A stretch of 64,000 bases of DNA from Clostridia bacterium (GTDB lineage: Bacteria > Bacillota > Clostridia > HGM11327): the NCBI GenBank assembly GCA_045627045.1, contig JAZQMY010000056.1, forward strand, positions 47,995 through 111,994. Reading direction: 5' to 3'. Below, piece after piece: positions 2,486 to 16,078 of the stretch (within the stretch, counting starts at the first letter, position 1; the number at the start of each line of letters is the position of its first letter). A program made the translations under genes and the position numbers. The notes beneath the pieces were generated by a model. The model saw only the letters and a program-made list of their open reading frames with translations, was not told where the DNA came from and ran no database searches.

Positions 2486-2517
2486 TTAACCGAAATTGAA
2501 AGGGAGGAATTGAAACC

Positions 2518-3054: not shown

Positions 3055-3056
3055 AA

Positions 3057-3611: not shown

Positions 3612-3649
3612 ATCGAATGATTTCAGAATAAATTAAGGAGGTTTTTGTT

Positions 3650-4309: not shown

Positions 4310-4358
4310 TAAAGTCACATTCGTGATTTTATATAAATTAGAAACGGAGAATTAAAAA

Positions 4359-4889
4359 ATGAAGAAAAAGATTTTGGCAGTTGTAATTGCCGCTGTTCTT
4401 GTTCTAGGCTGCTGCATCGGCGGAACGATTGCTTGGTTGATCGACAAAACAGAAAACGTTGTGAACACATTCACACCGAGTGATATCAACATCGAGCTTA
4501 CTGAGTCAAATAACCTTGATCTTAAGATGGTTCCGGGCAAGGAACTCGTCAAGGATCCTAAGGTTACAGTAAAGGCTAACTCAGAAAAATGCTGGGTATT
4601 CGTTAAGGTAGAGAAGGGCAATAATCCCGACTACTTCCTTACATACGCTATTGCTGAAGGATGGACAGAGCTTGAAACGGGCGTTTACTATCGCGAAGTT
4701 TCTTCCTCAACTTCTGATCAGGTATTCAGCGTACTCGAGGATGATAAGGTTACAGTTAAGTCAGAAGTAACAAAGGCTGATCTTACAGCACAGAACTTTG
4801 AAAAACCTACACTTACATTCAAGGCTTATGCCATCCAGAAGGAAGGCTTCGAAACAGCAGCTGCTGCTTGGGCAGAAGCTAAAAAGTAA
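4359..4889 (+). CDS. TasA/camelysin-family-like secreted protein, SipW-cognate signal peptide (paralog 3, 176 aa)
   Basis: 'GGTIAWLIDKTENVVNTFTPSDI'. C-terminal 'FKAYAIQKEGFETAAAAWAEAKK'. Confidence 0.6.
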   Translation: MKKKILAVVIAAVLVLGCCIGGTIAWLIDKTENVVNTFTPSDINIELTESNNLDLKMVPGKELVKDPKVTVKANSEKCWVFVKVEKGNNPDYFLTYAIAEGWTELETGVYYREVSSSTSDQVFSVLEDDKVTVKSEVTKADLTAQNFEKPTLTFKAYAIQKEGFETAAAAWAEAKK

Positions 4890-4937
4890 TTCAATACAAT
4901 TGAATAATTAATATTATTAAAAAGGAGATAATCTCAA

Positions 4938-5741
4938 ATGAAAAAGAAAATTATCACACTCGCTCTCGTAGCAGTTATTGCTCTTGCAGCAATTACCGGT
5001 GCATCTCTCGCTTACTTCACAGATAAAGACGAGATGACAAACACATTCACAATGGGCAACGTTGACATCACTCTCAAAGAGTATGGTAAGAACACAGACG
5101 GCGAAATCGCTCCGTTCAGTGATTCTGTAAATGAGCTTATCCCGGGCATTTCTGTTCAGAAGATTGCCACAATCACAAACACAGGCAAGAACGATGCTTA
5201 TGTATGGGCAGAAATCCTTGTTCCTAAGGCTCTCGTTTCAGCTCTTGCTCCGGCAAATGAAACAGACAGCGCTCTCCATTACAATACATACGGCGCTTTC
5301 GCAACAGAATACTTTGGCAGATATCAGCAGACTCCTGTTAACGACGGTATCCTCGTTAACGGTGCTATCAGCATTGACACAAACTGCGAATACGTTGACG
5401 TAGCAGAAGAGAACACATGGTCAAACCCTGTTGTTGCAGGTGAAGTAACAGTTGAAGACGTTGAATATGTTGTATTCCTCACAAAGATGCAGAGCATCCT
5501 TCCTGTAGGCAAGACAACACTTCCTTTCCTCCGCGGCGTTTACATGGACAACGATGTTGATGCAGCAAGAGATGAGAGCGGCGCAATCATCGAAGGCACA
5601 TATGTAATTCCTCAGCAGACAGCTAACGGCGTTGAGTTCGTTAACTACGACGGTTCTTGGGATGTAATCGTAAGAGCATATGCTATCCAGTCAGCCGGCT
5701 TTGATACGGTTGATGATGCTTACGCTGCATACAACAAATAA
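4938..5741 (+). CDS. TasA/camelysin-family-like secreted protein, SipW-cognate signal peptide (paralog 4, 267 aa)
   Basis: 'GASLAYFTDKDEMTNTFTMGNV'. 'NTGKNDAYVWAEILVP' resembles the TasA/M73 core. C-terminal 'VRAYAIQSAGFDTVDDAYAAY'. Strong RBS AAAGGAG. Confidence 0.65.
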   Translation: MKKKIITLALVAVIALAAITGASLAYFTDKDEMTNTFTMGNVDITLKEYGKNTDGEIAPFSDSVNELIPGISVQKIATITNTGKNDAYVWAEILVPKALVSALAPANETDSALHYNTYGAFATEYFGRYQQTPVNDGILVNGAISIDTNCEYVDVAEENTWSNPVVAGEVTVEDVEYVVFLTKMQSILPVGKTTLPFLRGVYMDNDVDAARDESGAIIEGTYVIPQQTANGVEFVNYDGSWDVIVRAYAIQSAGFDTVDDAYAAYNK

Positions 5742-5754
5742 GACTGATAAACAA

Positions 5755-5806
5755 TCTCCCTGCTTTTGCAGGGAGGTAAACAAAAGCGCTATTGGCTTAA
5801 TAACGC
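5755..5806 (+). terminator. Two consecutive stem-loops between TasA-like paralogs 4 and 5 (intrinsic terminator or attenuator)
   Basis: CTCCCTGC-tttt-GCAGGGAG is a perfect 8-bp stem at 5755-5774. A second AAAAGCG...CGCTTTT stem with T-tract follows at about 5780-5806. Confidence 0.5.
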
Positions 5807-5850
5807 TTTTGTTTACAAAAATAAGTATTTTATTGAATGGAGAAAATTCT

Positions 5851-6417
5851 ATGAAAAAGAAAATATTGATCGCAGCACTGATTGTTTGCCTTCTTGCTGT
5901 TGCAGCATACGGTACTCTTGCGTACTTCACGTCAGAGGACACAACAGAGAATATCATCAAGTCAGGCAACCTCAAGGTAAAGCTCATCGAAACCGAAATC
6001 GACGATAATGGCGAGGAAATCCCGTACGTAAATGAGAAAATCGGTATTATGCCCGGAACGACGATATCAAAGATAGTCAAGGCAGAGAACGTAGGTAGAC
6101 ATGACGCTTATGTTCGTATCAGACTTACAAACGTTATTACTCTTGCAGACGGCACAGAGGATAATGACGAGAACGGCTACGTTAAGTATTCAATCGACGA
6201 GGAAAACTGGACATATGCTGACGGCTGGTACTATTATAATACTGCTCTTGAGGCAGGCAAGACTTCCGAAGCTCTCCTTTCCGAAGTAATTTTCTCAATT
6301 GAAACAGATAACTTATATCAGGACAGCGTTCTCTCGATCAATGTTGAGCTTCAGGCAGTTCAGGTTCAGAACAACGGAGCTGACGTATTTGAAGCCGCAG
6401 GCTGGCCGGCAGTCTGA
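5851..6417 (+). CDS. TasA/camelysin-family-like secreted protein, SipW-cognate signal peptide (paralog 5, 188 aa; start chosen inside ORF-track ORF 5680..6417)
   Basis: ATG at 5851 is preceded by TGGAGA and begins 'MKKKILIAALIVCLLAVAAYGTLAYFTSEDTTENIIKSGNL'. 'NVGRHDAYVRIRLTN' parallels paralog 4. C-terminal 'LQAVQVQNNGADVFEAAGW'. Confidence 0.6.
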   Translation: MKKKILIAALIVCLLAVAAYGTLAYFTSEDTTENIIKSGNLKVKLIETEIDDNGEEIPYVNEKIGIMPGTTISKIVKAENVGRHDAYVRIRLTNVITLADGTEDNDENGYVKYSIDEENWTYADGWYYYNTALEAGKTSEALLSEVIFSIETDNLYQDSVLSINVELQAVQVQNNGADVFEAAGWPAV

Positions 6418-6445
6418 TTTATTCAAAACAGGAGGTTAATGCTTA

Positions 6446-7081
6446 ATGAACAGGACTAAAAAGTCAGTTCTCAGCATTGTACTTGTATTCGTATTCATGT
6501 TTATGATGTCTGCGATTGCATTTGCTGAGACAAACGTTACATATGACGGAGATGCACAGCATTTCGTTTTTGCTCCGGAAAATCTTTTTGAGAACTTTGA
6601 TGACGTAATGCCGGGTGATGTGATTTCACAGGAAATCAAAATCAACAACAAAGCTTCCAATAAGGTTGATGTTAAGGTTTACCTTAAATGCGAGCCGATC
6701 GACAGTGAATATGCGGATTTCCTTTCAAATCTTCATCTTACCGTAACTCAGGTAGGAAAGTCAAAGCATTTTGATGCTCCTGCAGACCAGACGGACGGAC
6801 TTACTGATTTTGCATATCTCGGCACGATCACATCCGGCGGAAAAGAAACGCTGATGGTAACTCTTGAGGTACCTATCGATCTTCCGAACGAGTTTCAGGA
6901 TTCGTTTGGCAAGGTAAGCTGGACATTCAAGGTCGAAGAGCTTGAAAACGAAGCGCCTATAACAGGTGAAAACAATTTGATTTATATCCTTTGCGGAGTA
7001 TGTGTTCTTGCGGCTGCATTGCTTGTAGTATTCATCATTCTTCGCAAAAAGGACAAAGAAAATGACAAAAAGACTGATTGA
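6446..7081 (+). CDS. Secreted, C-terminally anchored protein in the TasA locus: Sec-type signal peptide (AFA-ET), beta-rich domain, then 'APITGENN', a hydrophobic segment and an RKKDK tail (cell-wall sorting-signal-like)
   Basis: N-terminal 'MNRTKKSVLSIVLVFVFMFMMSAIAFA'. C-terminal 'PITGENNLIYILCGVCVLAAALLVVFIILRKKDKENDKKTD' has the tripartite architecture of sortase substrates, with a PxTG-like motif. Confidence 0.5.
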   Translation: MNRTKKSVLSIVLVFVFMFMMSAIAFAETNVTYDGDAQHFVFAPENLFENFDDVMPGDVISQEIKINNKASNKVDVKVYLKCEPIDSEYADFLSNLHLTVTQVGKSKHFDAPADQTDGLTDFAYLGTITSGGKETLMVTLEVPIDLPNEFQDSFGKVSWTFKVEELENEAPITGENNLIYILCGVCVLAAALLVVFIILRKKDKENDKKTD

Positions 7082-7089
7082 TACAATGA

Positions 7090-7120
7090 AGCTCTGATTA
7101 TTCAGGGCTTTTTGTTTTTT
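7090..7120 (+). terminator. Intrinsic terminator after the TasA-like locus
   Basis: AGCTCTGA-ttat-TCAGGGCT hairpin (one G-U wobble) followed by TTTTGTTTTTT. Confidence 0.5.
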
Positions 7121-7208
7121 GTGTTTAATTTTATTATAATTTTGTGCTTGAAAAATAAACTGTTATATGGTAAAATTAACATGTTATTTTTTGAAATCCG
7201 GAGGGAAT

Positions 7209-9206
7209 ATGGGTATCAGAGTTAATAATAACGGTTTTGAATATGCCGAAAAAGAACTATTGAAGTTTATATCATGCTATGAAGTACCTGAGCATTTTGA
7301 TAATAAGACGGTCACTCTTTCAGTTGAAGATACAACAGAGGATTTTTGCTTCGGTGTTAGACCGGGCGATAACGGAATCATAATTTACGGCGGAAGCAGG
7401 TCAGCAGTGCTTTGCGGCGTGTACAAAGCGCTCGAAGCAGGCGGAATCAGATTCGGTCTCGGGGAACAGGTGAGACCGGAGACGTTTGACTTCGAAGCAT
7501 TCTTCGGACTGAATGTTTTTGTGCATCCGAAGGTAAGAAACAGAGGAATCAGACAGCATATCAATTTTACTATGGACATCTCTTCCTATGCGCTTGCCGA
7601 AGCTGAAGAATACATAAGGGATCTTGCGAGACTCAAGTTCAATGCGATAACCTTTCACAGTTATAACACGATGTGGACAAATTGCGAAGAGAACGGATAT
7701 ATAGGCAGATTTTTCTATAATATAGAGAACACTGTTCCGAAGGTCGACCTTGCAAATCCTGTAAACAATAAAAAATACTATTGCATTCCCGAAATTGAGG
7801 ATGTTTTTGAAGACGATGCAAAGAGAAGCGAAGCGGCACATAATTGGCTTTCAGAGGTAATGAAAACCGCAAAGGAATGCATGATGAAGGTAACGCTTTC
7901 GGTTGAAATTCCTTTTACTTCGGATGGTTCGGATAAGGAAAAGTACGTTTCATTTCTCAGAAGAACGTGCAGTGATTATCCTATGATAGATGTACTTGAG
8001 CTAATCAGCCATGAAACCGGCGGTAGCTGCGGGGATCGCTTCGATGAAAAAGAGGGTACAAAATGGGCTGTTGATCTTCTTTCGGATAAGATCCTTTCCG
8101 ACAACGGAAAGCCTGAATATATAGGCGAGAAGTATTCGAATGACCTTTGCGATGAGCTTGATCACCTGAAGAGACATCTTATTGCATACTCTCTTAAAGA
8201 TGAGTGGGCAAAGGGCCTTGAAAAGGTGCCTGAAATCAGAATGGGCTTTTATTCAGTGATAGGCGACACGAACAAAATCCTGAGACCTATTCACAATAAG
8301 GTAGTTCCGGAGGGCGTAAAGAAATGCTGGCTTCCTGCACACTCCTCAATGTATGTTGCCGATGCGCTGAAATCAGCAGGCTTCAATGACAAGGACTTTG
8401 CCGATACAATGATTTATTCGTGGGCAGAGTTTGACGGAAGCATGTATGTGACTCAGGTCGAGACAAAGGGAATAGAAAAGCTTATCAGCCTGTCCAAAAC
8501 GAGGGATATGTACGGAATTTGTCTCAATCATTGGAGAAACGCAGAGAACAGACTCACTATTGAGTATGCATCAGAAGCATTTATCCGTCCTGTGAGCGAG
8601 GTTAAGTATTTCTTTGAATTTGCAGAGAAGTACGGCATCAGAAGGAAGGCTGAATTTGCTTCGGCAATGAACAGACTTTCTATTCTCGATCTTTTCACAA
8701 GGGATGAGCTCTTCAATGTAGGCTTCTGCCATCTCGGATGCTGGACACCGTGGCAGGGAGTATCCTACGCAACAAGATTCGATGAAAAGAAGCTTGTATG
8801 GGCAGGAAATGAGTTCAAGGAGCTTTCGGAAAGCTTCGGAAAGCTTGTAAACGACGATAACCTTAAGTCAGGCAATAATTTCCTTACATTGATGGAGAAC
8901 AGATGCAAGACAAGCTTCATTCATATTCAGTGCTTCCGTTCGCTCTATCCTGTAAAGGATATGAAGCCGACGGATGATCCCGAAGAAAGGGAAATTATTA
9001 AGAATGCTTTTGCAAAAGCAAGACAATATGCCCTTGAATATCTTTATACATATTCAGAACTTATGCCGGACAGAGGAGCAGAGGGACTTGTAACAAGTTA
9101 TAATCAGGTAGTTTTGAATTACCTTGATATAAAAGAAGAATATTATTTAGGAAAAGAGACAGAAAATCAGAAATCAGAAGATGAGGAACCACCGCTTCCG
9201 GTATGA
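7209..9206 (+). CDS. Hypothetical cytoplasmic protein, 665 aa (start at the ATG after GGAGGG; ORF-track start 7167 is likely too early)
   Basis: Long ORF with RBS GGAGGG at 7199-7204. No signal peptide and no motif I can assign. Confidence 0.5.
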   Translation: MGIRVNNNGFEYAEKELLKFISCYEVPEHFDNKTVTLSVEDTTEDFCFGVRPGDNGIIIYGGSRSAVLCGVYKALEAGGIRFGLGEQVRPETFDFEAFFGLNVFVHPKVRNRGIRQHINFTMDISSYALAEAEEYIRDLARLKFNAITFHSYNTMWTNCEENGYIGRFFYNIENTVPKVDLANPVNNKKYYCIPEIEDVFEDDAKRSEAAHNWLSEVMKTAKECMMKVTLSVEIPFTSDGSDKEKYVSFLRRTCSDYPMIDVLELISHETGGSCGDRFDEKEGTKWAVDLLSDKILSDNGKPEYIGEKYSNDLCDELDHLKRHLIAYSLKDEWAKGLEKVPEIRMGFYSVIGDTNKILRPIHNKVVPEGVKKCWLPAHSSMYVADALKSAGFNDKDFADTMIYSWAEFDGSMYVTQVETKGIEKLISLSKTRDMYGICLNHWRNAENRLTIEYASEAFIRPVSEVKYFFEFAEKYGIRRKAEFASAMNRLSILDLFTRDELFNVGFCHLGCWTPWQGVSYATRFDEKKLVWAGNEFKELSESFGKLVNDDNLKSGNNFLTLMENRCKTSFIHIQCFRSLYPVKDMKPTDDPEEREIIKNAFAKARQYALEYLYTYSELMPDRGAEGLVTSYNQVVLNYLDIKEEYYLGKETENQKSEDEEPPLPV

Positions 9207-9228
9207 TTTTCAAAAATGGTGATAGAAA

Positions 9229-10482
9229 ATGAATCAGATGACAAGAAAAAACAAGATTTTGATCTGCCTTGCGGGATGCATTGTATATTTTACGAGTTAT
9301 CTCACACGCTACGGATTTAATGCTCTTTTAAACCAGATTATTACATCAGGGACATTACCGAAAACGATAACGGCAGGCATTTCAACCGGTGCTTTTATCA
9401 CATACGGTCTTGGTCAGATAGTAATGGGAATGATCTCAGACAGATTTGATCCCAAGAAAATGATTGTTCTCGGACTTTCCGGAACAGCAATCTGTAATCT
9501 CGGAATGTTCTTTATCCAAAAGCCGATTGTGCTTGCGGTAATATGGTGTGTCAACGGATGCTTCCAGGCGATGCTTTGGCCTCCGCTTGTAAGAATAATG
9601 GCGGAGCTGTATGATTCTCACGGCTATAAGAAGTCAATTGAATACATATCTTATGCAAGTGCTTTAGGCAAAATGTCCGTTTATGTTCTTGCTGCATTCT
9701 TTATTTTTATTGGTCTTTGGAGATCCACTTTTATCTTCACCGCGGGAGTGGCAATAATAGCAGCCATTATCTGGATAAGGCTTATGAATACTGTGCCTGA
9801 AGCAAGGGCATGTGGAAAATCAGATATTGCATCAGATAATGAGGACAAAAAGGAAAACGATAAACATGAAAGCAAAAAAGCGCAGCCTTTCCCCAAAAAG
9901 CTTCTTATTATGTTTGTGATCCCGGTAGGTGCGGCTATTATAGTGCAGGGAATGCTGAGAGAAGGTATTTCAACGTGGATGCCGAGCTATATGACAGAGG
10001 TTCTCGGACTTGAACCGTCGCAATCTGCGATAGTATCAATAATCCTTCCTGTTTTTTCACTCCTTGGAATAAAACTTTCTGCTATTCTGATAAAAAAGAT
10101 GACGGAGTTGAGAGCGGCATGGATAATGTTCGGAATCACGACTATTCTTTGCGGCACAATGGTTTTTGCAACCGGAAGAAGCACGATAGCTATGGCAGCA
10201 CTTATGGCTTGCTCTGCAGGTTGTGTTGATTGTATCAATACTCTCCTTATTAACTATCTACCGAGCAGATTCGTCAAGCTGGGCAGAGCTGCAGGTACTG
10301 CAGGTCTTTTCAATGCATTCACATATGTCGGAAGTGCAGCATCTATTTACGGGGTTGCAGTTGTTTCGGATGCTTTCGGCTGGACCACGACCCTGATTGT
10401 ATGGAGTGTGGCATCCATTATTGGTATGGCAGTAACATTTGTACTTAATGCAACAAAGACAGATGTAAAATTTTTTGATTAA
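9229..10482 (+). CDS. MFS transporter, probably organophosphate:phosphate antiporter family (GlpT/UhpT-like)
   Basis: About 12 predicted TM segments. MFS signature 'GMISDRFDPKK'. 'NGCFQAMLWPPLVRIMAELY' resembles the GlpT 'GWFQGMGWPPCGRTMVHWW' region. Central cytoplasmic loop is rich in K/E/D. Confidence 0.6.
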   Translation: MNQMTRKNKILICLAGCIVYFTSYLTRYGFNALLNQIITSGTLPKTITAGISTGAFITYGLGQIVMGMISDRFDPKKMIVLGLSGTAICNLGMFFIQKPIVLAVIWCVNGCFQAMLWPPLVRIMAELYDSHGYKKSIEYISYASALGKMSVYVLAAFFIFIGLWRSTFIFTAGVAIIAAIIWIRLMNTVPEARACGKSDIASDNEDKKENDKHESKKAQPFPKKLLIMFVIPVGAAIIVQGMLREGISTWMPSYMTEVLGLEPSQSAIVSIILPVFSLLGIKLSAILIKKMTELRAAWIMFGITTILCGTMVFATGRSTIAMAALMACSAGCVDCINTLLINYLPSRFVKLGRAAGTAGLFNAFTYVGSAASIYGVAVVSDAFGWTTTLIVWSVASIIGMAVTFVLNATKTDVKFFD

Positions 10483-10498
10483 TAAAAAATATCCGCGA

Positions 10499-10527
10499 TT
10501 GACATATAATGTGAATTGGAATATAAT
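10499..10527 (+). promoter_or_regulatory. Sigma-A-type promoter upstream of the phosphatase-like gene pair
   Basis: TTGACA, 17 nt spacer, TATAAT. Confidence 0.5.
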
Positions 10528-10580
10528 TATTAATAGGCAAAGCCTTGAACATTTTTTGAACTTTTGAAAGGTATAATTTT

Positions 10581-11396
10581 ATGGAAAGAAAATATAAGAG
10601 AGTAATATTGCTCGGTGTTGACGGAGCAGGTATTTTTTTCAGACAGGCAAGCACGCCGTTTATAGATAAGATAATGGAGAATGGATCTCAAACGTATGAT
10701 GGACTTACCGCTCTTCCGACAATAAGCGGTGAATGCTGGGGAGCGATGCTTCATGGTGTTGATCCGGAGGTACACAAACTCACAAATTCTATTGTTTCAT
10801 CACAGAAATATGACCAAAACTCACCGTATCCTTCATTCTTCAGAGTAATCAGAGAGAATTATCCTGATGCAGTGCTTGCTTCATTCAGCTGTTGGAGCCC
10901 GATTAATTTCGGAATAATTGAGGACAATCTAGGAGTATATATGGATTCTGCCGAAGATGGAGAACTTACTGAAAAGATTATTGATTACATCAATAAAAAT
11001 GACTTTGATACGATGTTTGTTCAGTTCGACAGCGTTGATGGCGCAGGACATAGATTCGGCTACGGAGACGAGAAGTATCTTGAACAGCTTTCGCTTGTTG
11101 ACAGCTACATAGGAAGGATTGCAGAGACCCTCAAAGCACGCGGTATGTATGAAGATTCACTCATCATAGTTACGGCAGACCATGGCGGTACTGTTTTCCA
11201 TGGCCATGGCGGCGATACTCCGGAGGAAAAGACAATCTATATCGGCGTATGCGGAAAGAACGTAAAGAAGGGCGTTATGGCAAACGGAGAACAGGTTTCG
11301 GTCAAGGCTATTCCGGCAATAGTTCTTTATGCTATGGGCCTTGAAGTTCCAAAGACGTGGACAGGAAAGGTTCCGGAAGGCATTTTTGAGGACTGA
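10581..11396 (+). CDS. Alkaline-phosphatase-superfamily metalloenzyme (nucleotide pyrophosphatase/phosphodiesterase or phosphomutase-like core), 271 aa
   Basis: 'ILLGVDGAG', 'TALPTISGECWGAMLHG', 'FDSVDGAGHRFGY', 'TADHGGT..HGHGGD' are metal-ligand-like blocks of the AlkP superfamily. Paralog of the next gene. Confidence 0.55.
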   Translation: MERKYKRVILLGVDGAGIFFRQASTPFIDKIMENGSQTYDGLTALPTISGECWGAMLHGVDPEVHKLTNSIVSSQKYDQNSPYPSFFRVIRENYPDAVLASFSCWSPINFGIIEDNLGVYMDSAEDGELTEKIIDYINKNDFDTMFVQFDSVDGAGHRFGYGDEKYLEQLSLVDSYIGRIAETLKARGMYEDSLIIVTADHGGTVFHGHGGDTPEEKTIYIGVCGKNVKKGVMANGEQVSVKAIPAIVLYAMGLEVPKTWTGKVPEGIFED

Positions 11397-11399
11397 TGG

Positions 11400-12896
11400 A
11401 TGAACAGACTTTATAAAAGAATAGTATTGTTTGGTGTTGACGGTGCTGGTGCATTTTTCCGTGAGGCAGACACCCCGAATATTGACAGAATATTCAAAAA
11501 CGGTTCCCGTACATATGACGGGATAACTGCCCTTCCTTCGATAAGCGCTGAGTGCTGGGGATCAATGCTCCACGGAGTTGATCCTTCTGCTCACAAAATG
11601 ACAAACGGCTCAATACAAGTGAAACAGGCAATGAGCGATTCGCGCTATCCGTCTTTTTTCAGAGTGATAAGAGAGAATTATCCAGATGCGGTGCTTGCTT
11701 CATTTACCACATGGTCGGCGATAAACAGAGGAATAATCGAAAACGACATCGGCGTTATCAAAGTGAACGGAGACGAAAGAACAGTCACAGATAAAGCTGT
11801 TGAATTTGTCAGCAATAATGAGTTCGATCTTCTTTTCGTCATGTATGAGGAGGTCGATCTGAAGGGACATCATAATGGCTATGGCTCACAGAGACATCTT
11901 GAGGAGATAACTCAAAGCGACAGATATATCGGAGAGATATACGATGCTCTTGAAAAAAGAGGAATGGTTGAGGATACTCTCTTTATTGTATCGCCTGATC
12001 ATGGCGGCACGATTTACGGCAATCATGGCGGAGATACAAAGGAAGAGATGCAGATAATGATAGCAGTTGCCGGAAAAGGAGTAATCAATGGAACAATGGG
12101 CGGGGATGAGCCTGTTTATGTAAAATCCGTTGCGGCTATTATTTTATACGGTATGGGACTGGGTATTCCGGAGACGTGGACGGCGAATGTTCCGTTGAAT
12201 TTGTTTGAAAACTATAATGAACAGGAGCGAATAAGAGTGGAGGACAGACAGGAAGTCACACGGGATATACTCAATGACGGGCTTATCAGAACGCCTATCT
12301 GGTTTGAAGGCTCAATGCTCGAATATATGAATCATGATATAGTTCAGACAGTGGGTGAAATCACTTTTCATCCGGGAATACACAGAGAGTCTGCTGACTT
12401 ATCAAAAGGATATGTTCTTTTGAAAAGATACAAGGTTGGTATTGACAGCTTTGCGGTTGGAATAAGGATAAAGTACACTGAATTCAATCACGACGAAGTC
12501 CTTTTTTCAAATTCAAGAGCAAAAGATCCGAATTTTAATGGATTTAATGCTATTCTGACAAAAGGCGGAGTAACGTTCAGGATAGGAAACGGCAGATACG
12601 GTCAGAAATTTGACTTTGATTTTGAACACAAACCAAATGAATGGTTCAGTTTTATTGTTTCAATTGACAGAGATAATCAGAAGATCTCAGCTTTTTTTAA
12701 TTATGAGCTTATCACAGAGTATGCCATAAATGAAGAATTCCGTACTTCTACGCTTGATTCGCTTGATTTCGGAATAGGAATGGACGGTATGGAGGAGTAT
12801 CCTTACCATCTAGAAGCACTTCTTTCTGAACTTTATATATTCAGAATAGCGGTAAACGAAGCTGATATGATAAAAATCAAGGAACAGTACGATTGA
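11400..12896 (+). CDS. Alkaline-phosphatase-superfamily metalloenzyme paralog fused to a C-terminal LamG/concanavalin-like jelly-roll domain, 498 aa
   Basis: The first 270 aa are collinear with the preceding gene ('VLFGVDGAG', 'SPDHGGT', 'HGGDTKEE'). The C-terminal 220 aa ('WFSFIVSIDRDNQKISAFFNYELI') look LamG-like. Starts 3 nt after the upstream stop. Confidence 0.55.
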   Translation: MNRLYKRIVLFGVDGAGAFFREADTPNIDRIFKNGSRTYDGITALPSISAECWGSMLHGVDPSAHKMTNGSIQVKQAMSDSRYPSFFRVIRENYPDAVLASFTTWSAINRGIIENDIGVIKVNGDERTVTDKAVEFVSNNEFDLLFVMYEEVDLKGHHNGYGSQRHLEEITQSDRYIGEIYDALEKRGMVEDTLFIVSPDHGGTIYGNHGGDTKEEMQIMIAVAGKGVINGTMGGDEPVYVKSVAAIILYGMGLGIPETWTANVPLNLFENYNEQERIRVEDRQEVTRDILNDGLIRTPIWFEGSMLEYMNHDIVQTVGEITFHPGIHRESADLSKGYVLLKRYKVGIDSFAVGIRIKYTEFNHDEVLFSNSRAKDPNFNGFNAILTKGGVTFRIGNGRYGQKFDFDFEHKPNEWFSFIVSIDRDNQKISAFFNYELITEYAINEEFRTSTLDSLDFGIGMDGMEEYPYHLEALLSELYIFRIAVNEADMIKIKEQYD

Positions 12897-13465
12897 CGAT
12901 GATGAAGCAAATGAAAGATTATTTAAGAAAAAATATCGCGAATATACTCACGGCATCCAGATTTTTCATTGCAATGGCGTTGCTGATACTGTATTTTACA
13001 AATTCGGAGAATTGGTTCTGGAGATGTCTTGCATTATTTTTGCTTGGCTGCCTGACGGATATTTTTGACGGTATTGTTGCAAGAAAAACGGATTCTGTAA
13101 GCAATACCGGAAAGATACTCGATCCGTTCTGCGATAAGGCGATGATGCTGTGTATGCTTTTGGTGCTTGCACTTGGAGGATACGTTTATATGTGGGCATT
13201 TGTCCTTCTGGCGATAAAAGAGCTTCTTATGATAATCGGTTCATTATTCTTCCTCAATAAAAAGATCGTAGTGATGTCGAATTGGTATGGAAAGTCAGCA
13301 ACGATACTTTTGAGTTTTTCTGTTGTGCTTGCGGTAGCTGGATTAAGACCGTTCAGCGATTGGGCACTTGCAGTATCGCTTATGTGGACGTTTGCTACTA
13401 TGGTGCAGTATGCGACTTTGTATTATAAGCAGATAAAAGAAAACAAAAGAACTGAAAACAATTGA
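12893..13465 (+). CDS. CDP-alcohol phosphatidyltransferase family protein (PgsA-like), 190 aa
   Basis: Signature D-G-x2-A-R-x8-G-x3-D-x3-D is seen as 'DIFDGIVARKTDSVSNTGKILDPFCDKA'. Multi-TM protein. The ATGA start overlaps the upstream stop, indicating translational coupling. Confidence 0.75.
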   Translation: MTMMKQMKDYLRKNIANILTASRFFIAMALLILYFTNSENWFWRCLALFLLGCLTDIFDGIVARKTDSVSNTGKILDPFCDKAMMLCMLLVLALGGYVYMWAFVLLAIKELLMIIGSLFFLNKKIVVMSNWYGKSATILLSFSVVLAVAGLRPFSDWALAVSLMWTFATMVQYATLYYKQIKENKRTENN

Positions 13466-13494
13466 TTTTTCAGCAGATAATGACAGGAAAAGAC

Positions 13495-13523
13495 TTGCAA
13501 TTTTTGAACTTTAAGTGTAAAAT
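13495..13523 (+). promoter_or_regulatory. Sigma-A-type promoter for the isomerase/epimerase gene
   Basis: TTGCAA, 17 nt spacer, TAAAAT; then RBS AGGAGG. Confidence 0.45.
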
Positions 13524-13556
13524 ATATATAAGATTTATTCTTAGGAGGAATATAAT

Positions 13557-14525
13557 ATGAAATTAGGTGTAGTAGGTGCTCTGTTCAGCAACAGACCCCT
13601 CAAGGATGCTCTTGATTACCTCAAGACACTCGGTGTTCAGATGATAGAAATCGGTACGGGCGGCTTCCCGGGCGATGCACATTGCAAACCCGCAGAGCTT
13701 CTTGCCGATGAAAAGAAACTTGAAGAATTCAAGAAAACGATAGCTGATTCAGGCATTGAAATAAGCGCATTTGCTTGCCACGGCAACCCTGTTCACCCTG
13801 ACAAGGAAAAGGCTGCAGAATTCTGCACAGCTTTCAACAATACTGTTCTTCTCGCAGAGAAGATGGGAATCGACAGAATCATTACATTCTCAGGCTGCCC
13901 GGGCGGCTCAAAGGATGACAAGACTCCGAACTGGGTAACATGCCCTTGGCCGGATGATTTCCTTTCTATCCTTGATTATCAGTGGAATGAGGTTCTCGTT
14001 CCTTACTGGAAGGAAGCTGTAAAGTTCGCTGAAGCTCACGGCATCAAGAAGATCGCTCTTGAAATGCACCCCGGCTTCTGCGTTTACAACCCGGAGACAC
14101 TTCTCAAGCTCCGTAAGGCTGTAGGAAGCGATATAATCGGCGCAAACTTTGACCCGAGCCATTTGTTCTGGCAGGGAATTGAGCCTGTTGCAGCTATCAG
14201 AGAGCTCGGCGATGCTATCCATTACGTTCATGCAAAGGATACAAGAATTGATGCTATCAACACAGCTAAGTACGGCGTTCTTGATACAAAGCATTATACA
14301 GACGAAATCCATCGTTCATGGATATTCCGTTCAGTAGGCTATGGCCACGATATGCAGGTTTGGAGAGATATCGTAAGCAACCTCAAGCTTGTAGGCTATG
14401 ATGACGTTCTCAGCATTGAGCATGAGGACAGCCTTATGTCGCCGACTGAGGGCTTTGAAAAGGCAGTTAAGTTCCTTAAGGATGCCATCATTTCAGAGTC
14501 AGCAGGCGAGATCTGGTGGGCTTGA
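13557..14525 (+). CDS. Sugar phosphate isomerase/epimerase (xylose-isomerase-like TIM barrel) family protein
   Basis: 322 aa. 'MIEIGTGGFPGDAHC', 'ALEMHPGF', 'HAKD' and 'SIEHED' are typical of the AP-endonuclease-2/xylose-isomerase-like TIM barrel fold. Confidence 0.65.
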   Translation: MKLGVVGALFSNRPLKDALDYLKTLGVQMIEIGTGGFPGDAHCKPAELLADEKKLEEFKKTIADSGIEISAFACHGNPVHPDKEKAAEFCTAFNNTVLLAEKMGIDRIITFSGCPGGSKDDKTPNWVTCPWPDDFLSILDYQWNEVLVPYWKEAVKFAEAHGIKKIALEMHPGFCVYNPETLLKLRKAVGSDIIGANFDPSHLFWQGIEPVAAIRELGDAIHYVHAKDTRIDAINTAKYGVLDTKHYTDEIHRSWIFRSVGYGHDMQVWRDIVSNLKLVGYDDVLSIEHEDSLMSPTEGFEKAVKFLKDAIISESAGEIWWA

Positions 14526-14538
14526 TAAAAAACATTCT

Positions 14539-14570
14539 GACCGTATCGGATTATTCCGGTACGGTTTTTT
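14539..14570 (+). terminator. Intrinsic terminator
   Basis: CCGTATCGG-attatt-CCGGTACGG stem followed by TTTTTT. Confidence 0.6.
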
Positions 14571-14587
14571 ATTATGCAATATTTTAC

Positions 14588-14640
14588 TTGACAAATCGGG
14601 AATTTTGGTGTAAAATGTTTTTAGTTAGGTATCTAACTAA
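14588..14640 (+). promoter_or_regulatory. marR promoter (TTGACA-17-TAAAAT) with an adjacent perfect palindrome TTAGTTAG-GTAT-CTAACTAA, a putative MarR operator
   Basis: -35 at 14588-14593, -10 at 14611-14616. The 20-bp inverted repeat at 14621-14640 lies between the -10 element and the marR RBS. Confidence 0.55.
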
Positions 14641-14670
14641 AAATAAAGGATCAAAAGGATCTTTCTGATT

Positions 14671-15141
14671 ATGGATAAGAACAATAAGCTTCCGGCAGAG
14701 GAAACAAGGCCTTGCCCGGAAGAAATGCCTACAATGATGCTTCTGAATGACGTATCGAAGCTTTTTCACGATAAATTAAGGGGATATAACGAGAGTGTCG
14801 GCGTGCCTGACGGTTTCAGACGTATTCTATTTGAACTTCGCAGAGGCGACGGCAAAACACAGCTTGAAATATCGAGAATGACTCATCTCAAGGCACCGAC
14901 TGTCAGCGTGGCACTTCAGAAAATGGAGCTAGCAGGGTTGGTTGAGAGAAAAACGGATGAAGAGGATATGCGTCAGAGCAGAGTGTTCATAACGGATAAG
15001 GGCAGAGAGATTATGGGCATTGTTCATTCCAATCTGAAAAAGGCGGAGAAAATCACTCTGGAGCCTATTACGCCGGAGGAAGAGGAGCAGCTGAAAACAA
15101 TATTGCTCAAGATGAGAAAGCCGCTGATAGAGGAAGAATAA
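14671..15141 (+). CDS. MarR-family transcriptional regulator
   Basis: Winged-helix region 'TQLEISRMTHLKAPTVSVALQKMELAGLVERKTDEEDMRQSRVFITDKGRE'. Confidence 0.8.
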   Translation: MDKNNKLPAEETRPCPEEMPTMMLLNDVSKLFHDKLRGYNESVGVPDGFRRILFELRRGDGKTQLEISRMTHLKAPTVSVALQKMELAGLVERKTDEEDMRQSRVFITDKGREIMGIVHSNLKKAEKITLEPITPEEEEQLKTILLKMRKPLIEEE

Positions 15142-15346
15142 AAAGCTATTGAGGCATTGCTTTTGCAAATAAAGCAGGTTTGATCAAATAATATACTGAA
15201 TCGGATATAACTTGGGGCGAAAAATAGTTTTTTGCCTCTTTTTTATTAAATAATTATTGAAAAAATACAGGATGTGTGTTATACTATACATTATAGTGAA
15301 AAATAGTGAAAAAGTTCAGATGCCTTTGAGGCAGAAAGGATAAAAG

Positions 15347-16078
15347 ATGTACGAGTACCTCATATATTTTATTCAGAACGGATTTGCGGTGTTCCTCTTT
15401 ACCGTTCCGGCATTCGTATTATCGCTTCTTGCAGGAGAATATGTAAGAGCGATGGTGATCAAAAATTATCTGGGATATGAGATACCGAGAAATCCGAAAG
15501 AATACCTTTCTGTTTCCGGAACGATAGTCGGCTGTATTTTCGGCTACGGCTGGGCAAAGAAAAGAGAGTACAACGATTCATCCCTTTCAAAAGGCAAGAG
15601 GCTGGTAATTGCGTTGTCCGGCTTTATTGGCAATATCTGCTTTACGGTCATTCTTTTACTTATCCAGGCTTTTATCATGACTGTTGCTCTGTGGATGGGA
15701 TTGAAGCTTACAGGTGCTCTTGACTGGACGCTTTTCGCATTCAATATTTTCATCTGGAGCTCAACGGCGCTTGCTTTCACAAGATTGCTCATAATTCCGG
15801 GCTTTGACGGATATGATGTTGTCAAGATACTGTTCTTTGACAGAAAAAACGGCAAAAAGCTCAGGGCATTCGAGAATTCGGGCAAATGGATATTTTTTAT
15901 TCTTGCTCTTTTCTCATTCCTGCTCTATGCCATAGCACTCGCCAACCTCAGCATCCTGTTGTATGTCGTTGAATCACCGACTTCAGCGCTTCTGACGGTT
16001 CTCGGGAAGCTTCAGACGGCATTTGTAAATATACTGACGAATTACGGGCTTAATAATTCCGGCTGGCTTATCGGCTGA
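15347..16078 (+). CDS. Polytopic membrane protein; possibly a degenerate site-2-protease (M50)-like protein lacking the HExxH histidines
   Basis: 6-7 TM segments. 'LLIIPGFDGYDVVKILF' resembles the M50 'NLLPxxPLDGG' motif. The expected HExxH position reads 'GEYVRA'. Confidence 0.3.
   Translation: MYEYLIYFIQNGFAVFLFTVPAFVLSLLAGEYVRAMVIKNYLGYEIPRNPKEYLSVSGTIVGCIFGYGWAKKREYNDSSLSKGKRLVIALSGFIGNICFTVILLLIQAFIMTVALWMGLKLTGALDWTLFAFNIFIWSSTALAFTRLLIIPGFDGYDVVKILFFDRKNGKKLRAFENSGKWIFFILALFSFLLYAIALANLSILLYVVESPTSALLTVLGKLQTAFVNILTNYGLNNSGWLIG

What the first reader, a model, noticed from the sequence alone, without database searches (positions are those of the whole stretch)
9229..14525. Putative organophosphate uptake and processing cluster: GlpT/UhpT-like MFS, two AlkP-superfamily enzymes, coupled CDP-alcohol phosphatidyltransferase and a sugar-phosphate isomerase/epimerase
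This gene combination is not a textbook operon. An organophosphate:Pi antiporter-like MFS sits upstream of two tandem AlkP-superfamily metalloenzymes. The second is translationally coupled (ATGA overlap) to a 190-aa CDP-alcohol phosphatidyltransferase. A xylose-isomerase-like TIM barrel enzyme follows, and a MarR regulator lies downstream. This could encode import and remodelling of a phosphoester (glycerophosphodiester or sugar phosphate) into a lipid or wall-polymer head group, or a novel phospholipid-modification pathway.
Basis: partly seen in the sequence, partly recalled or inferred. Interest (0 to 1): 0.6.

Follow-up and report, generated by a model that had tools for sequence, protein, structure and literature searches.

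The report
Mixed organophosphate-uptake and lipid-synthesis gene neighbourhood
The genes are real and mostly named correctly, but comparison with other genomes shows several separately conserved units sitting side by side rather than one pathway: a sugar-enzyme-like gene with a phosphate-ester importer, two phosphatase-like enzymes, a lipid head-group enzyme and a widespread sugar-type enzyme.

Summary
All six genes exist at the stated coordinates, and every domain call is confirmed. The MFS is most like organophosphate:phosphate antiporters (OPA family) and keeps both GlpT phosphate-binding arginines. It is not a drug-efflux type.

- A 665-aa glycosidase-like gene (7209-9206) lies 22 bp upstream of the MFS.
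- A perfect sigma-70 promoter consensus (10499-10527) separates the MFS from the phosphatase genes.
- The junction is not an ATGA overlap. It reads TGA-cg-ATG.

Conservation is layered:
- The TIM-barrel enzyme is found across Clostridia at about 70% identity, with unrelated neighbours.
- Transferase followed by TIM barrel is fixed in a small clade (9 loci, about 7 lineages).
- The AlkP-LamG gene sits upstream of the transferase in only 4 of those lineages.
- Only 2 of 78 other AlkP-LamG loci have the transferase.
- MarR and the glycosidase-MFS pair are not shared with the relatives.

Elsewhere the AlkP-LamG family is mostly a secreted lipoprotein of herbivore-gut bacteria, found next to DeoR regulators, sugar-binding proteins and glycosidases.

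The transferase is PgsA-like. It lacks two of the conserved glycerol-3-phosphate-binding residues and scores below the pgsA cutoff.

My best reading is a catabolic organophosphate module next to a PgsA-like/TIM pair. An integrated lipid-remodelling pathway is possible but weakly supported.

The parts
7088..7111 (+). Terminator-like hairpin that closes the upstream surface-protein genes. It marks the left boundary of the stretch.
   Evidence: 10-pair stem followed by a T-run.
7148..7176 (+). Promoter-like site upstream of the glycosidase-like gene.
   Evidence: TTGAAA-17-TAAAAT, 10/12 matches, with an extended-10 TG.
7209..9206 (+). 665-aa glycoside-hydrolase-like protein of an undescribed family (N-terminal alpha/beta domain, TIM barrel, helical bundle). 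It has no signal peptide.
   Evidence: No Pfam or PDB match by sequence. The start at M15 agrees with the database copy P0265. The AlphaFold2 model has pLDDT 91.9. Foldseek finds GH138, GH20, GH84 and GH115 at E 1e-13 to 1e-9 and 9-12% identity.
9229..10482 (+). OPA-like MFS transporter (417 aa), 22 bp downstream of the glycosidase-like gene.
   Evidence: PF07690, 1.9e-39. TIGR00881/GlpT/UhpC/PgtP are the best models, all below their cutoffs. GlpT (1pw4) matches at E 8.6e-17 with R27 and R244 aligned to the two essential arginines. GlpT K80 aligns to Q63.
10499..10527 (+). Consensus sigma-70-type promoter in the MFS-AlkP1 gap.
   Evidence: TTGACA-17-TATAAT, 12/12, the best match in the 9.3-kb scan.
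10581..11396 (+). AlkP1: 271-aa NPP-type alkaline-phosphatase-superfamily enzyme. It is a catalytic domain only and has no signal peptide.
   Evidence: PF01663 6.6e-21 and PF01676 1.5e-11. It is 55% identical to the AlkP2 catalytic domain and 62% identical to the first AlkP-LamG copy in L003. D14, S49, N69, D153, H157, D200, H201 and H209 are all conserved.
11400..12896 (+). AlkP2: 498-aa NPP-type catalytic domain (about residues 1-275) plus a C-terminal LamG-like beta-sandwich (about residues 296-498). It has no signal peptide.
   Evidence: PF01663 2.7e-18. Homologues carry PF13385. The AlphaFold2 model has pLDDT 88. Foldseek finds Xac NPP, ENPP7, ENPP5 and sulfatases. Fused AlkP-AlkP-LamG proteins exist elsewhere.
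12899..13465 (+). PgsA-like CDP-alcohol phosphatidyltransferase (188 aa from the ATG; 190 aa from the TTG at 12893).
   Evidence: PF01066 1.2e-29. The motif DIFDGIVARKTDSVSNTGKILDPFCD is present, and it is the only such motif in the 64-kb window. TIGR00560 scores 80.4 bits against a cutoff of 109.1. The best solved relative is S. aureus PgsA.
13495..13523 (+). Weak promoter-like site upstream of the TIM-barrel gene.
   Evidence: TTGCAA-17-TAAAAT, 9/12.
13557..14525 (+). 322-aa xylose-isomerase-like TIM-barrel enzyme, highly conserved across Clostridia.
   Evidence: PF01261 1.6e-33. It is 84-90% identical to close relatives and 68-72% identical to thousands of Clostridial proteins. Neighbours vary in other genomes.
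14539..14566 (+). Intrinsic-terminator-like hairpin after the TIM gene. It marks the right boundary.
   Evidence: 12-pair stem followed by TTTTATT.
14588..15141 (+). MarR-family regulator (14671-15141) with its own promoter-like site (14588-14616). It is not conserved with the cluster.
   Evidence: PF12802 and PF01047. Promoter match 11/12. No homologue in any related locus.

Best explanation
The stretch 7.1-14.6 kb is a juxtaposition of units whose conservation depth differs. It is not one dedicated pathway.

Unit A (7209-12896) is a cytoplasmic salvage or catabolic module for an organophosphate, probably a phosphorylated sugar or glycoside.
- An OPA-type MFS imports a phosphate ester, most likely in exchange for Pi.
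- Two leaderless NPP-type metalloenzymes remove the phosphate through a Ser-49 phospho-enzyme intermediate. These are AlkP1, and AlkP2 with a LamG-like substrate-binding domain. The released Pi would feed the antiport.
- The glycosidase-like protein would then cleave the de-phosphorylated glycoside.

Unit B (12899-13465) is a PgsA-like CDP-alcohol phosphatidyltransferase. It makes a phospholipid head group from CDP-diacylglycerol. Its acceptor pocket differs from orthodox PgsA.

Unit C (13557-14525) is a ubiquitous Clostridial TIM-barrel enzyme with its own weak promoter. MarR is an unrelated neighbour.

Shown: the domain identities, the catalytic and ligand residues, the predicted folds, the layered synteny and the promoter and terminator layout. 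Inferred: the substrates, the direction of transport, the order of reactions and any cross-talk between units A and B.
For: Unit A:
- The MFS is OPA-like with both phosphate-binding arginines.
- AlkP1 and AlkP2 keep all metal ligands and the Ser nucleophile. Their fold matches NPP/ENPP enzymes and sulfatases.
- The pair mirrors single-chain AlkP-AlkP-LamG fusions of 803-862 aa found elsewhere.
- A distant Clostridiales MAG (L048) has DeoR, a short AlkP, an MFS 30-32% identical to this one, a 753-aa GH42-like protein and an AlkP-LamG gene, in a different order.
- L061 has the C-terminus of a protein of the glycosidase-like family 26 bp upstream of an AlkP-LamG gene.
- In other loci the AlkP-LamG genes neighbour DeoR regulators (8 loci), sugar-binding proteins (8), GH28 (10), PfkB kinases (8), a GH78-like rhamnosidase and a GFO/IDH oxidoreductase.

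Separateness of the units:
- A 12/12 promoter consensus lies between the MFS and AlkP1.
- The transferase followed by the TIM barrel is present in all 9 loci of the clade. AlkP lies upstream in W, L083, L002 and L003 only. The gaps are 2 nt, an overlap, 92 bp and 78 bp.
- TIM orthologues at 69-76% identity lie next to cmk-plsC-ispH, recD2 or secG-rnr.
- Of 78 AlkP-LamG loci, 76 lack the transferase. Of 80 loci of the glycosidase-like family, none has an MFS, AlkP, transferase or TIM neighbour.
Against: - AlkP2 and the transferase are only 2 nt apart here and overlap in L083. There is no terminator between 7111 and 14539, so co-transcription and functional coupling of units A and B cannot be excluded.
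- AlkP-LamG upstream of the transferase recurs in four lineages whose transferases are only 57-70% identical. That is more than a one-off accident.
- The links between the MFS and AlkP, and between the glycosidase-like gene and AlkP, each rest on one other locus.
- The MFS lacks the GlpT K80 equivalent (Q63) and scores far below every OPA-family cutoff.
- No substrate was identified for any protein.
- About 70% of AlkP-LamG homologues are secreted lipoproteins. The cytoplasmic role proposed here may not match the family's main role.
Confidence: 0.5

Rival explanations
1. The MFS imports a phosphoester and AlkP1/AlkP2 convert it to a free alcohol. The translationally coupled transferase then joins that alcohol to CDP-diacylglycerol, making an unusual phospholipid or anchor head group. 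The TIM barrel tailors the polyol or sugar.
For: - There is a 2-nt spacer between AlkP2 and the transferase, and the same abutting arrangement occurs in L083.
- The order AlkP-LamG, transferase, TIM occurs in four lineages.
- The transferase lacks the equivalents of S. aureus PgsA R118 (Ser) and K137 (Ala). Both residues bind the 3'-phosphate of the product, and mutating them lowers activity. This is consistent with a non-phosphorylated acceptor.
- It scores below the pgsA equivalog cutoff.
- No terminator lies inside the stretch.
Against: - The transferase-TIM pair persists without AlkP in the P0124, P0126 and probably P0122 lineages.
- The gaps are 78-92 bp in L002 and L003.
- Elsewhere the AlkP-LamG family is a mostly secreted enzyme in carbohydrate-utilisation contexts, with no transferase.
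- The TIM barrel is ubiquitous, with unrelated neighbours.
- The missing R118 and K137 are shared by many other 180-aa Firmicute relatives in unrelated contexts. The loss is therefore not specific to this cluster.
Confidence: 0.2
2. The transferase is simply the lineage's housekeeping PgsA, and the AlkP, MFS and glycosidase-like genes are unrelated neighbours. This is the condition the first reader said would refute the proposal. A variant of this reading has the soluble AlkP enzymes acting as the missing PGP phosphatase.
For: - pgsA is the best NCBIfam model for every clade member (80-99 bits, full-length alignment), clearly above ClsA at 47-58 bits.
- S. aureus PgsA is by far the closest solved structure (E 7.9e-11, against 7e-5 for the next best).
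- The gene is the only CDP-alcohol transferase in the 64-kb window.
- It is a single conserved gene in every relative and sits among housekeeping genes: scpA/scpB here, hrcA/dnaK in L003 and L080.
- K83 and T138 are identical, and R110 is replaced conservatively by Lys.
Against: - It scores below the curated cutoff of 109.1. Two of the residues the S. aureus PgsA paper calls evolutionarily conserved for binding the glycerol-3-phosphate phosphate are missing.
- The one related sequence that keeps them (P0139) is also the only one that passes the cutoff.
- Whether a second, canonical pgsA exists elsewhere in the genome could not be checked.
- For the phosphatase variant, AlkP-LamG genes are absent next to the transferase in three lineages, and the family is mostly extracellular.
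Confidence: 0.2
3. The AlkP-LamG enzymes are phospho-head-group transferases rather than hydrolases, in the manner of LtaS, OpgB, EptA or BcsG. They would take a head group from the lipid made by the adjacent transferase and attach it to a glycan bound by the LamG domain.
For: - They belong to the alkaline-phosphatase superfamily, have a Ser nucleophile and carry a glycan-binding-type LamG domain.
- They lie next to a phospholipid head-group synthase in four lineages.
- From general knowledge: LtaS, OpgB, EptA and BcsG are AlkP-superfamily enzymes that use PG or PE as donors.
Against: - The window's proteins have no transmembrane anchor or signal peptide. The known transferases of this type are membrane-anchored with extracytoplasmic catalytic domains.
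- No sequence match to those families passed any threshold. YejM scored only 17 bits.
- The surrounding contexts elsewhere are catabolic.
Confidence: 0.05

Closest known systems
Organophosphate:Pi antiporter systems of E. coli (GlpT with GlpQ; UhpT; PgtP). TC 2.A.1.4.
   Same: The MFS fold is shared. The best profile matches are to PgtP/GlpT/UhpC/UhpT models, and GlpT is the best solved relative. Both substrate-binding arginines (GlpT R45 and R269) are conserved. A phosphoesterase gene lies next to the transporter, as glpQ does next to glpT (general knowledge).
   Different: - Scores are far below every family cutoff (164.7 against 407.75 for TIGR00881).
- The GlpT K80 equivalent is Gln.
- The partner esterases are cytoplasmic NPP-type AlkP-superfamily enzymes, not a periplasmic GlpQ-type glycerophosphodiesterase.
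- There is no GlpR or UhpABC regulator.
- The transporter is co-operonic with a glycosidase-like protein.
Nucleotide pyrophosphatase/phosphodiesterases (Xanthomonas NPP, ENPP4, ENPP5, ENPP7) within the alkaline-phosphatase superfamily.
   Same: PF01663 matches, and there is a bimetal ligand set (D14, D153, H157, D200, H201, H209) with a nucleophile after beta-strand 2. The Foldseek target-normalised TM-score is 0.53-0.58 at rmsd about 4-5 A.
   Different: - The nucleophile is Ser, not Thr.
- The core is only about 270 aa and lacks the NPP insertions.
- Identity is 12-14%.
- A LamG-like C-terminal domain is present.
- A tandem or fused AlkP-AlkP-LamG architecture occurs.
- The substrate is unknown.
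Phosphatidylglycerophosphate synthase PgsA (S. aureus, PDB 7DRJ/7DRK; TIGR00560).
   Same: The D-x2-D-G-x2-A-R-x8-G-x3-D-x3-D motif is present. The length (about 185 aa) and six-TM layout agree. The alignment to the pgsA model is full length. The equivalents of K83 and T138 are kept, and R110 is replaced by Lys.
   Different: - It scores 80.4 bits against a cutoff of 109.1.
- The R118 equivalent is Ser and the K137 equivalent is Ala. Both residues contact the 3'-phosphate of PGP and are reported as conserved.
- It is conserved upstream of a TIM-barrel gene rather than in a phospholipid operon.
GH138, GH20, GH84 and GH115 glycoside hydrolases (for the 665-aa upstream protein).
   Same: The predicted three-domain architecture matches: an N-terminal alpha/beta domain, a (beta/alpha)8 barrel and a C-terminal helical bundle. 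Foldseek probability is 1.00 and E values reach 2.5e-13.
   Different: Identity is 9-12%. There is no Pfam, PDB or NCBIfam match by sequence or profile. Catalytic residues were not identified, and there is no signal peptide.

Membership tests
OPA family MFS (GlpT/UhpT/PgtP, TC 2.A.1.4) | MFS fold, with the best similarity to OPA-family models rather than drug-efflux models. | tested here: met
   PF07690 at 1.9e-39. TIGR00881 scores 164.7 bits, GlpT 93.6 and UhpC 87.5, against 42.8 for the multidrug model TIGR00880. GlpT (1pw4) is the best solved relative at E 8.6e-17.
OPA family MFS (GlpT/UhpT/PgtP, TC 2.A.1.4) | Score at or above the curated family or equivalog cutoff. | tested here: not met
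   All OPA models score far below their cutoffs: 164.7 against 407.75, 93.6 against 632.55, and 53 against 497.
OPA family MFS (GlpT/UhpT/PgtP, TC 2.A.1.4) | The two substrate-binding arginines in TM1 and TM7 (GlpT R45 and R269). | tested here: met
   The alignment to 1pw4 pairs YLTRYGF with YLVRKNF (R27) and MLREGISTW with LLRYGILDW (R244). The role of these residues comes from general knowledge of GlpT.
OPA family MFS (GlpT/UhpT/PgtP, TC 2.A.1.4) | The GlpT K80 equivalent, and demonstrated organophosphate/Pi exchange. | tested here: not met
   K80 aligns to Q63. Transport activity cannot be tested with these tools.
Alkaline-phosphatase superfamily, NPP-type (PF01663) | Pfam domain score above the gathering threshold, together with the AlkP-core fold. 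| tested here: met
   PF01663 scores 75.7 and 67.1 bits against a cutoff of 23. The AlphaFold2 model has pLDDT 88. Foldseek finds NPP/ENPP enzymes and sulfatases with probability 1.00.
Alkaline-phosphatase superfamily, NPP-type (PF01663) | A complete bimetal ligand set plus a Ser or Thr nucleophile. | tested here: met
   D14, S49, N69, D153, H157, D200, H201 and H209 are invariant in 25 family members. All are present in both AlkP1 and AlkP2.
Alkaline-phosphatase superfamily, NPP-type (PF01663) | Phosphodiesterase or pyrophosphatase activity on a defined substrate. | not testable with these tools
No NCBIfam equivalog scored above 36 bits.
PgsA (CDP-diacylglycerol--glycerol-3-phosphate 3-phosphatidyltransferase, TIGR00560) | The CDP-alcohol phosphotransferase motif D-x2-D-G-x2-A-R-x8-G-x3-D-x3-D. 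| tested here: met
   DIFDGIVARKTDSVSNTGKILDPFCD starts at 13058. PF01066 scores 104 bits.
PgsA (CDP-diacylglycerol--glycerol-3-phosphate 3-phosphatidyltransferase, TIGR00560) | Score at or above the equivalog cutoff of 109.1 bits. | tested here: not met
   The window protein scores 80.4 bits. Clade members score 92-99 bits. Only the distant relative P0139 passes, at 114.8 bits.
PgsA (CDP-diacylglycerol--glycerol-3-phosphate 3-phosphatidyltransferase, TIGR00560) | The conserved residues that bind the 3'-phosphate of PGP or glycerol-3-phosphate (S. aureus PgsA K83, R110, R118, K137; PMC8640168). | tested here: not met
   The equivalents are K80 (kept), K107 (Arg to Lys), S115 (R118 lost) and A134 (K137 lost). 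Whether the change reflects a different acceptor is an inference.
PgsA (CDP-diacylglycerol--glycerol-3-phosphate 3-phosphatidyltransferase, TIGR00560) | Being the only PgsA-type gene of the genome. | not testable with these tools
   Only 64 kb of the genome is available, and it holds one CDP-alcohol motif.
Xylose-isomerase-like TIM barrel (PF01261); IolE equivalog TIGR04379 | Pfam domain above its cutoff; equivalog score for inosose dehydratase. | tested here: inconclusive
   PF01261 scores 116.9 bits against a cutoff of 31.1, which is met. TIGR04379 scores 38.6 against 290, which is not met. The best solved relative is the uncharacterised SCO6571 structure, 2zds.
Single functional gene cluster or operon covering 9229-14525 | Co-location of the same gene set conserved across divergent genomes. 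| tested here: not met
   Only the transferase-TIM pair is constant, in 9 of 9 clade loci. AlkP is present in 4 of about 7 lineages. The MFS, the glycosidase-like gene and MarR are absent from all close relatives. TIM orthologues elsewhere have other neighbours.
Single functional gene cluster or operon covering 9229-14525 | One transcription unit. | tested here: inconclusive
   Consensus-like internal promoters lie at 10499 and 13495. No terminator-like hairpin lies between 7111 and 14539 outside coding sequence. Pattern matches are not proof of function.

The most novel reading that the evidence does not exclude
In this small uncultured Clostridia clade, a PgsA-like transferase has lost two glycerol-3-phosphate-binding residues. 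In this reading it uses a non-phosphorylated polyol or sugar alcohol that the coupled AlkP-LamG phosphoesterases release from an imported organophosphate. That organophosphate might be a plant- or microbe-derived glycosyl-polyol phosphate, trimmed by the uronidase/hexosaminidase-like 665-aa protein. The cell would thereby salvage a dietary head group directly into a new membrane phospholipid.
Probability: 0.1. Interest if true: 0.7.

Novelty: new variant of a known kind. Interest (0 to 1): 0.35.

Why it matters
The locus as a pathway is not well supported, so its main value lies in its parts. All of these leads need biochemistry.

- **The AlkP-LamG family.** It is large and uncharacterised. 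At least 414 clusters were found by the word-limited search, and 448 genomic matches in species-representative genomes. It spans Clostridia, Bacteroidales, Planctomycetota and Verrucomicrobiota, mostly from ruminant and other herbivore guts. Most members are lipoproteins, often paired with a DeoR regulator or flanked by glycosidases. Knowing the substrate would fill a gap in how gut bacteria handle phosphorylated, or otherwise esterified, dietary polymers.
- **The 665-aa protein.** It is a confident structural candidate for a new glycoside-hydrolase family.
- **The PgsA-like transferase.** It belongs to a set of Firmicute sequences that lack two residues reported as conserved in PgsA. Automated 'pgsA' annotations in Clostridia may therefore hide enzymes with other acceptors.

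Tried and rejected
- **Source genome.** The exact-sequence look-up of AlkP2 found no contig on record. Cluster look-up gave no names or accessions. The organism stays 'uncultured Clostridia-like'; its nearest relatives are MAGs CAJLXE01 and CAMEIT01.
- **Glycosidase-like gene as an anchor.** I scanned metagenome contigs with the glycosidase-like family to test linkage to the MFS and AlkP genes. None of the 80 loci had them. The general linkage is rejected, and only L061 supports it.
- **L048 GH42-like protein.** I tested whether this 753-aa protein is homologous to the window's 665-aa protein. It is not (E 1.4).
- **Sequence and profile searches of the 665-aa family.** Searches against PDB and Pfam found nothing. 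Only the structure prediction was informative.
- **Second CDP-alcohol transferase.** I looked in the window and in all 173 fetched loci. None was found apart from the clade's own genes and the two deliberately fetched relatives. The 'sole pgsA' question therefore stays open.
- **Regulatory RNAs.** Rfam and tRNA scans of the whole window found nothing, so no riboswitch or leader explains the regulation.
- **Literature.** Searches for a CDP-alcohol transferase with an alkaline-phosphatase cluster in Clostridia returned nothing relevant.
- **Horizontal transfer.** I considered recent transfer of the block and rejected it. GC content (0.40-0.42) and skew match the flanks.
- **Pfam on the AlkP2 C-terminus alone.** This found no LamG domain. 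The assignment rests on full-length homology to PF13385-bearing homologues and on the predicted beta-sandwich.

Full report
**Observation**

- MFS, 9229-10482.
- AlkP1, 10581-11396.
- AlkP2, 11400-12896.
- A CDP-alcohol transferase, 12893/12899-13465.
- A TIM-barrel protein, 13557-14525.
- MarR, 14671-15141.

Pfam confirms each domain call: PF07690; PF01663 plus PF01676 (twice); PF01066; PF01261; MarR.

Three details need correcting:
1. The AlkP2/transferase junction reads ...GAT TGA cg ATG ATG.... The spacer is 2 nt, or there is a TTGA overlap if the TTG at 12893 is used. It is not an ATGA overlap. The database copy of the protein starts at the ATG (188 aa).
2. A long gene lies only 22 bp upstream of the MFS. 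Its real start is M15 at 7209, giving 665 aa.
3. The 98-bp MFS-AlkP1 gap holds a perfect TTGACA-17-TATAAT (10499-10527). Weaker promoter-like sites precede the TIM gene and MarR. The only intergenic terminator-like hairpins flank the whole stretch, at 7088-7111 and 14539-14566.

**The MFS**

The best NCBIfam matches are all organophosphate:Pi antiporter models: TIGR00881 at 164.7 bits, then GlpT, UhpC, PgtP and UhpT. All are far below their cutoffs. The multidrug model scores 42.8 bits.

GlpT (1pw4) is the best solved relative, at E 8.6e-17. The alignment pairs R27 and R244 with the two GlpT arginines known to bind substrate phosphate. GlpT K80 aligns to Gln.

Membership of the OPA family is only partial.

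**The AlkP genes**

AlkP1 and AlkP2 are 55% identical over all 271 residues. Both keep D14, S49, N69, D153, H157, D200, H201 and H209, which are invariant across the family.

AlkP2 carries a C-terminal beta-sandwich. Its homologues are annotated PF13385 (LamG-like) over full-length alignments. The AlphaFold2 model (pLDDT 88) matches Xanthomonas NPP, ENPP7, ENPP5, ENPP4 and sulfatases at 12-16% identity.

Neither protein has a signal peptide. About 70% of 120 homologues do have lipoprotein leaders followed by low-complexity linkers.

Forms of 803-862 aa occur. The one whose domain order is on record (P0002, 835 aa) is a single-chain AlkP-AlkP-LamG fusion. This supports the two window genes working together.

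AlkP1 is 62% identical to the catalytic domain of the first of two tandem AlkP-LamG genes in L003. The tandem arrangement is therefore older than this genome, and AlkP1 has lost its LamG domain.

The family is large. There were 448 confirmed genomic matches, and the 78 distinct loci kept come from Clostridia, Bacteroidales, Planctomycetota and Verrucomicrobiota, mostly ruminant-gut MAGs.

**Synteny**

I searched the 78 AlkP-LamG loci with the window's proteins. Only L002 and L003, the two closest relatives, also carry the transferase (57-59% identity) and the TIM barrel (89-90%). Only L048 carries the MFS. None carries MarR.

No neighbour family is shared by more than 11 of the 78 loci. The recurrent neighbours are:
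- DeoR regulators, often divergent from very long AlkP-LamG proteins.
- Sugar-binding proteins.
- GH28.
- PfkB kinases.
- A GH78-like rhamnosidase.
- A GFO/IDH oxidoreductase.

This is a carbohydrate-utilisation flavour.

Two loci echo the left half of the window:
- L048 has DeoR, a short AlkP, an MFS (30-32% identical), a 753-aa GH42-like protein and an AlkP-LamG gene. The short AlkP is a distant, Thr-nucleophile member, only 24% identical.
- L061 has the C-terminus of a member of the 665-aa family 26 bp upstream of an AlkP-LamG gene.

The reverse test was negative. Of 80 metagenome loci of the 665-aa family, none has an MFS, AlkP, transferase or TIM neighbour. Their neighbours are GH127-like, GH95-like, sulfatase and AraC-type genes.

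**The 665-aa protein**

It has no Pfam, NCBIfam or PDB match by sequence or profile. It has about 258 representatives among 1.84 billion proteins.

The model is confident (pLDDT 91.9, pTM 0.93). Its N-terminal alpha/beta domain, TIM barrel and helical bundle match GH138, GH20, GH84 and GH115 (E down to 2.5e-13, 9-12% identity). It is a candidate new glycoside-hydrolase family.

**The transferase and the TIM barrel**

The transferase belongs to a small clade of seven other clusters at 55-80% identity. Similarity then drops to 43% or less.

In every locus of that clade, the gene is followed by the 322-aa TIM-barrel gene. These loci are W, L002, L003, L080-L083, L174 and L175.

The upstream neighbour varies:

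| Lineage | Upstream of the transferase |
|---|---|
| W | AlkP-LamG, 2 nt away |
| L083 | AlkP-LamG, overlapping; the C-terminus is recognisably homologous |
| L003 | AlkP-LamG, 78 bp away |
| L002 | AlkP-LamG, 92 bp away |
| P0124 lineage (L080-L082) | A divergent 295-aa gene |
| P0126 lineage (L174) | At least 300 bp of non-coding DNA |
| P0122 lineage (L175) | Apparently no AlkP |

The TIM barrel has 8000 or more relatives at E below 1e-10. Many are 68-72% identical and come from across Clostridia, including Caldanaerobius and Caldicellulosiruptoraceae.

Orthologues at 69-76% identity sit next to cmk-plsC-ispH/rpsA and an Fe-ADH, or next to recD2, or between M42 peptidases and secG-rnr. The enzyme is therefore widespread and context-independent. 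Its best solved relative is an uncharacterised Streptomyces protein.

**Is the transferase PgsA?**

pgsA is its best model, but at 80.4 bits against a cutoff of 109.1. ClsA is second at 56 bits. S. aureus PgsA is by far the closest solved structure.

The S. aureus PgsA paper names K83, R110, R118, K137 and Y181 as evolutionarily conserved residues around the 3'-phosphate of PGP. The K83A, R110A, R118A and K137A mutants show reduced activity (PMC8640168).

In the window protein these positions align to K80, K107, S115 and A134. Two of the four basic residues are therefore missing.

The same loss is seen in a wider set of 180-190-aa Firmicute relatives (P0129-P0138, P0140). These score 87-108 bits. 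The two whose contexts I looked up (P0132, P0133) sit in unrelated places: next to a pst-phoU operon, and between clpP and dus.

The one relative that keeps R118 and K137 (P0139) is the only one to pass the cutoff.

The transferase is thus PgsA-like but fails two tested membership criteria. I could not check whether the genome has another pgsA.

**Interpretation**

The evidence fits a layered neighbourhood:
- A probable cytoplasmic organophosphate or phosphoglycoside salvage module: glycosidase-like protein, OPA-like importer and two NPP-type esterases.
- This module is placed upstream of a clade-specific pair made of the PgsA-like transferase and the TIM barrel.
- MarR is a bystander.

Set against it are the absence of AlkP in three lineages, the absence of the transferase from 76 of 78 AlkP-LamG loci, the ubiquity of the TIM barrel and the internal consensus promoter.

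I give about 0.5 to the composite reading. I give 0.2 to the integrated pathway, 0.2 to 'housekeeping PgsA with unrelated neighbours' and 0.05 to a head-group-transferase role for the AlkP enzymes.

**Novelty and interest**

No known operon matches this gene set, and literature searches found none. The parts are uncharacterised members or variants of known superfamilies.

The most interesting by-products are the herbivore-gut AlkP-LamG family, the candidate new glycosidase family and the PgsA-like sequences that lack the phosphate-binding residues. Interest in the locus itself is moderate to low.

Noticed in passing
window 7209-9206 (+): A 665-aa protein with no Pfam, NCBIfam or PDB sequence match. 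Its confident AlphaFold2 model (pLDDT 92) has the three-domain architecture of GH138, GH20, GH84 and GH115, so it is a candidate for an undescribed glycoside-hydrolase family. It has about 258 representatives in 1.84 billion proteins. In environmental loci it sits among GH127-like, GH95-like, sulfatase and AraC-type genes, and in L149 it is fused to an N-terminal six-hairpin glycosidase-like domain (1270 aa).
   Followed up: partly
window 200-7081 (+): A run of surface or biofilm-matrix genes. It includes a 761-aa protein with Listeria-Bacteroides repeats, two camelysin/TasA-like proteins (PF12389) with SipW-dependent signal peptides (TIGR04088, TIGR04090) and a 211-aa protein with a weak (below-cutoff) match to a sortase-dependent (LPXTG-type) surface-protein family. 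A terminator at 7088-7111 closes the run.
   Followed up: partly
loci L016, L036, L039, L063 and L070 (for example L016:1326-4805, L063:6233-11143): Very long AlkP-LamG proteins (1159-1636 aa), in one case with four LamG domains. Each is paired with a divergently transcribed DeoR regulator. This looks like a conserved two-gene unit in ruminant-gut Clostridia MAGs.
   Followed up: partly
proteins P0129-P0138 and P0140; loci L172:5001-5555 and L173:5001-5558: A broad set of 180-190-aa Firmicute PgsA-like proteins lacks the equivalents of S. aureus PgsA R118 and K137 and scores below the TIGR00560 cutoff. One of them lies directly upstream of a pstS-pstCAB-phoU operon. Some are named PgsA or cardiolipin synthase by their source databases.
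   Followed up: partly
window 15347-16078 (+): A 243-aa multi-pass membrane protein with no Pfam or NCBIfam match. It lies between MarR and scpA/scpB and has its own promoter-like site (15257-15285).
   Followed up: no
window 1-64000: The whole 64-kb window contains no Rfam family at gathering threshold and no tRNA or tmRNA gene. No T-box was called upstream of the class-I (Trp/Tyr-type, PF00579) tRNA synthetase gene on the minus strand at 19724-20746.
   Followed up: no
loci L084 and L085, 6512-7480 and 7001-7969: In a relative with a 76%-identical TIM barrel, that gene lies 38 bp downstream of the cmk-plsC-ispH/rpsA operon and upstream of an Fe-alcohol dehydrogenase. This is a second case of the TIM barrel sitting next to a phospholipid-synthesis gene. 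It may be coincidence.
   Followed up: no
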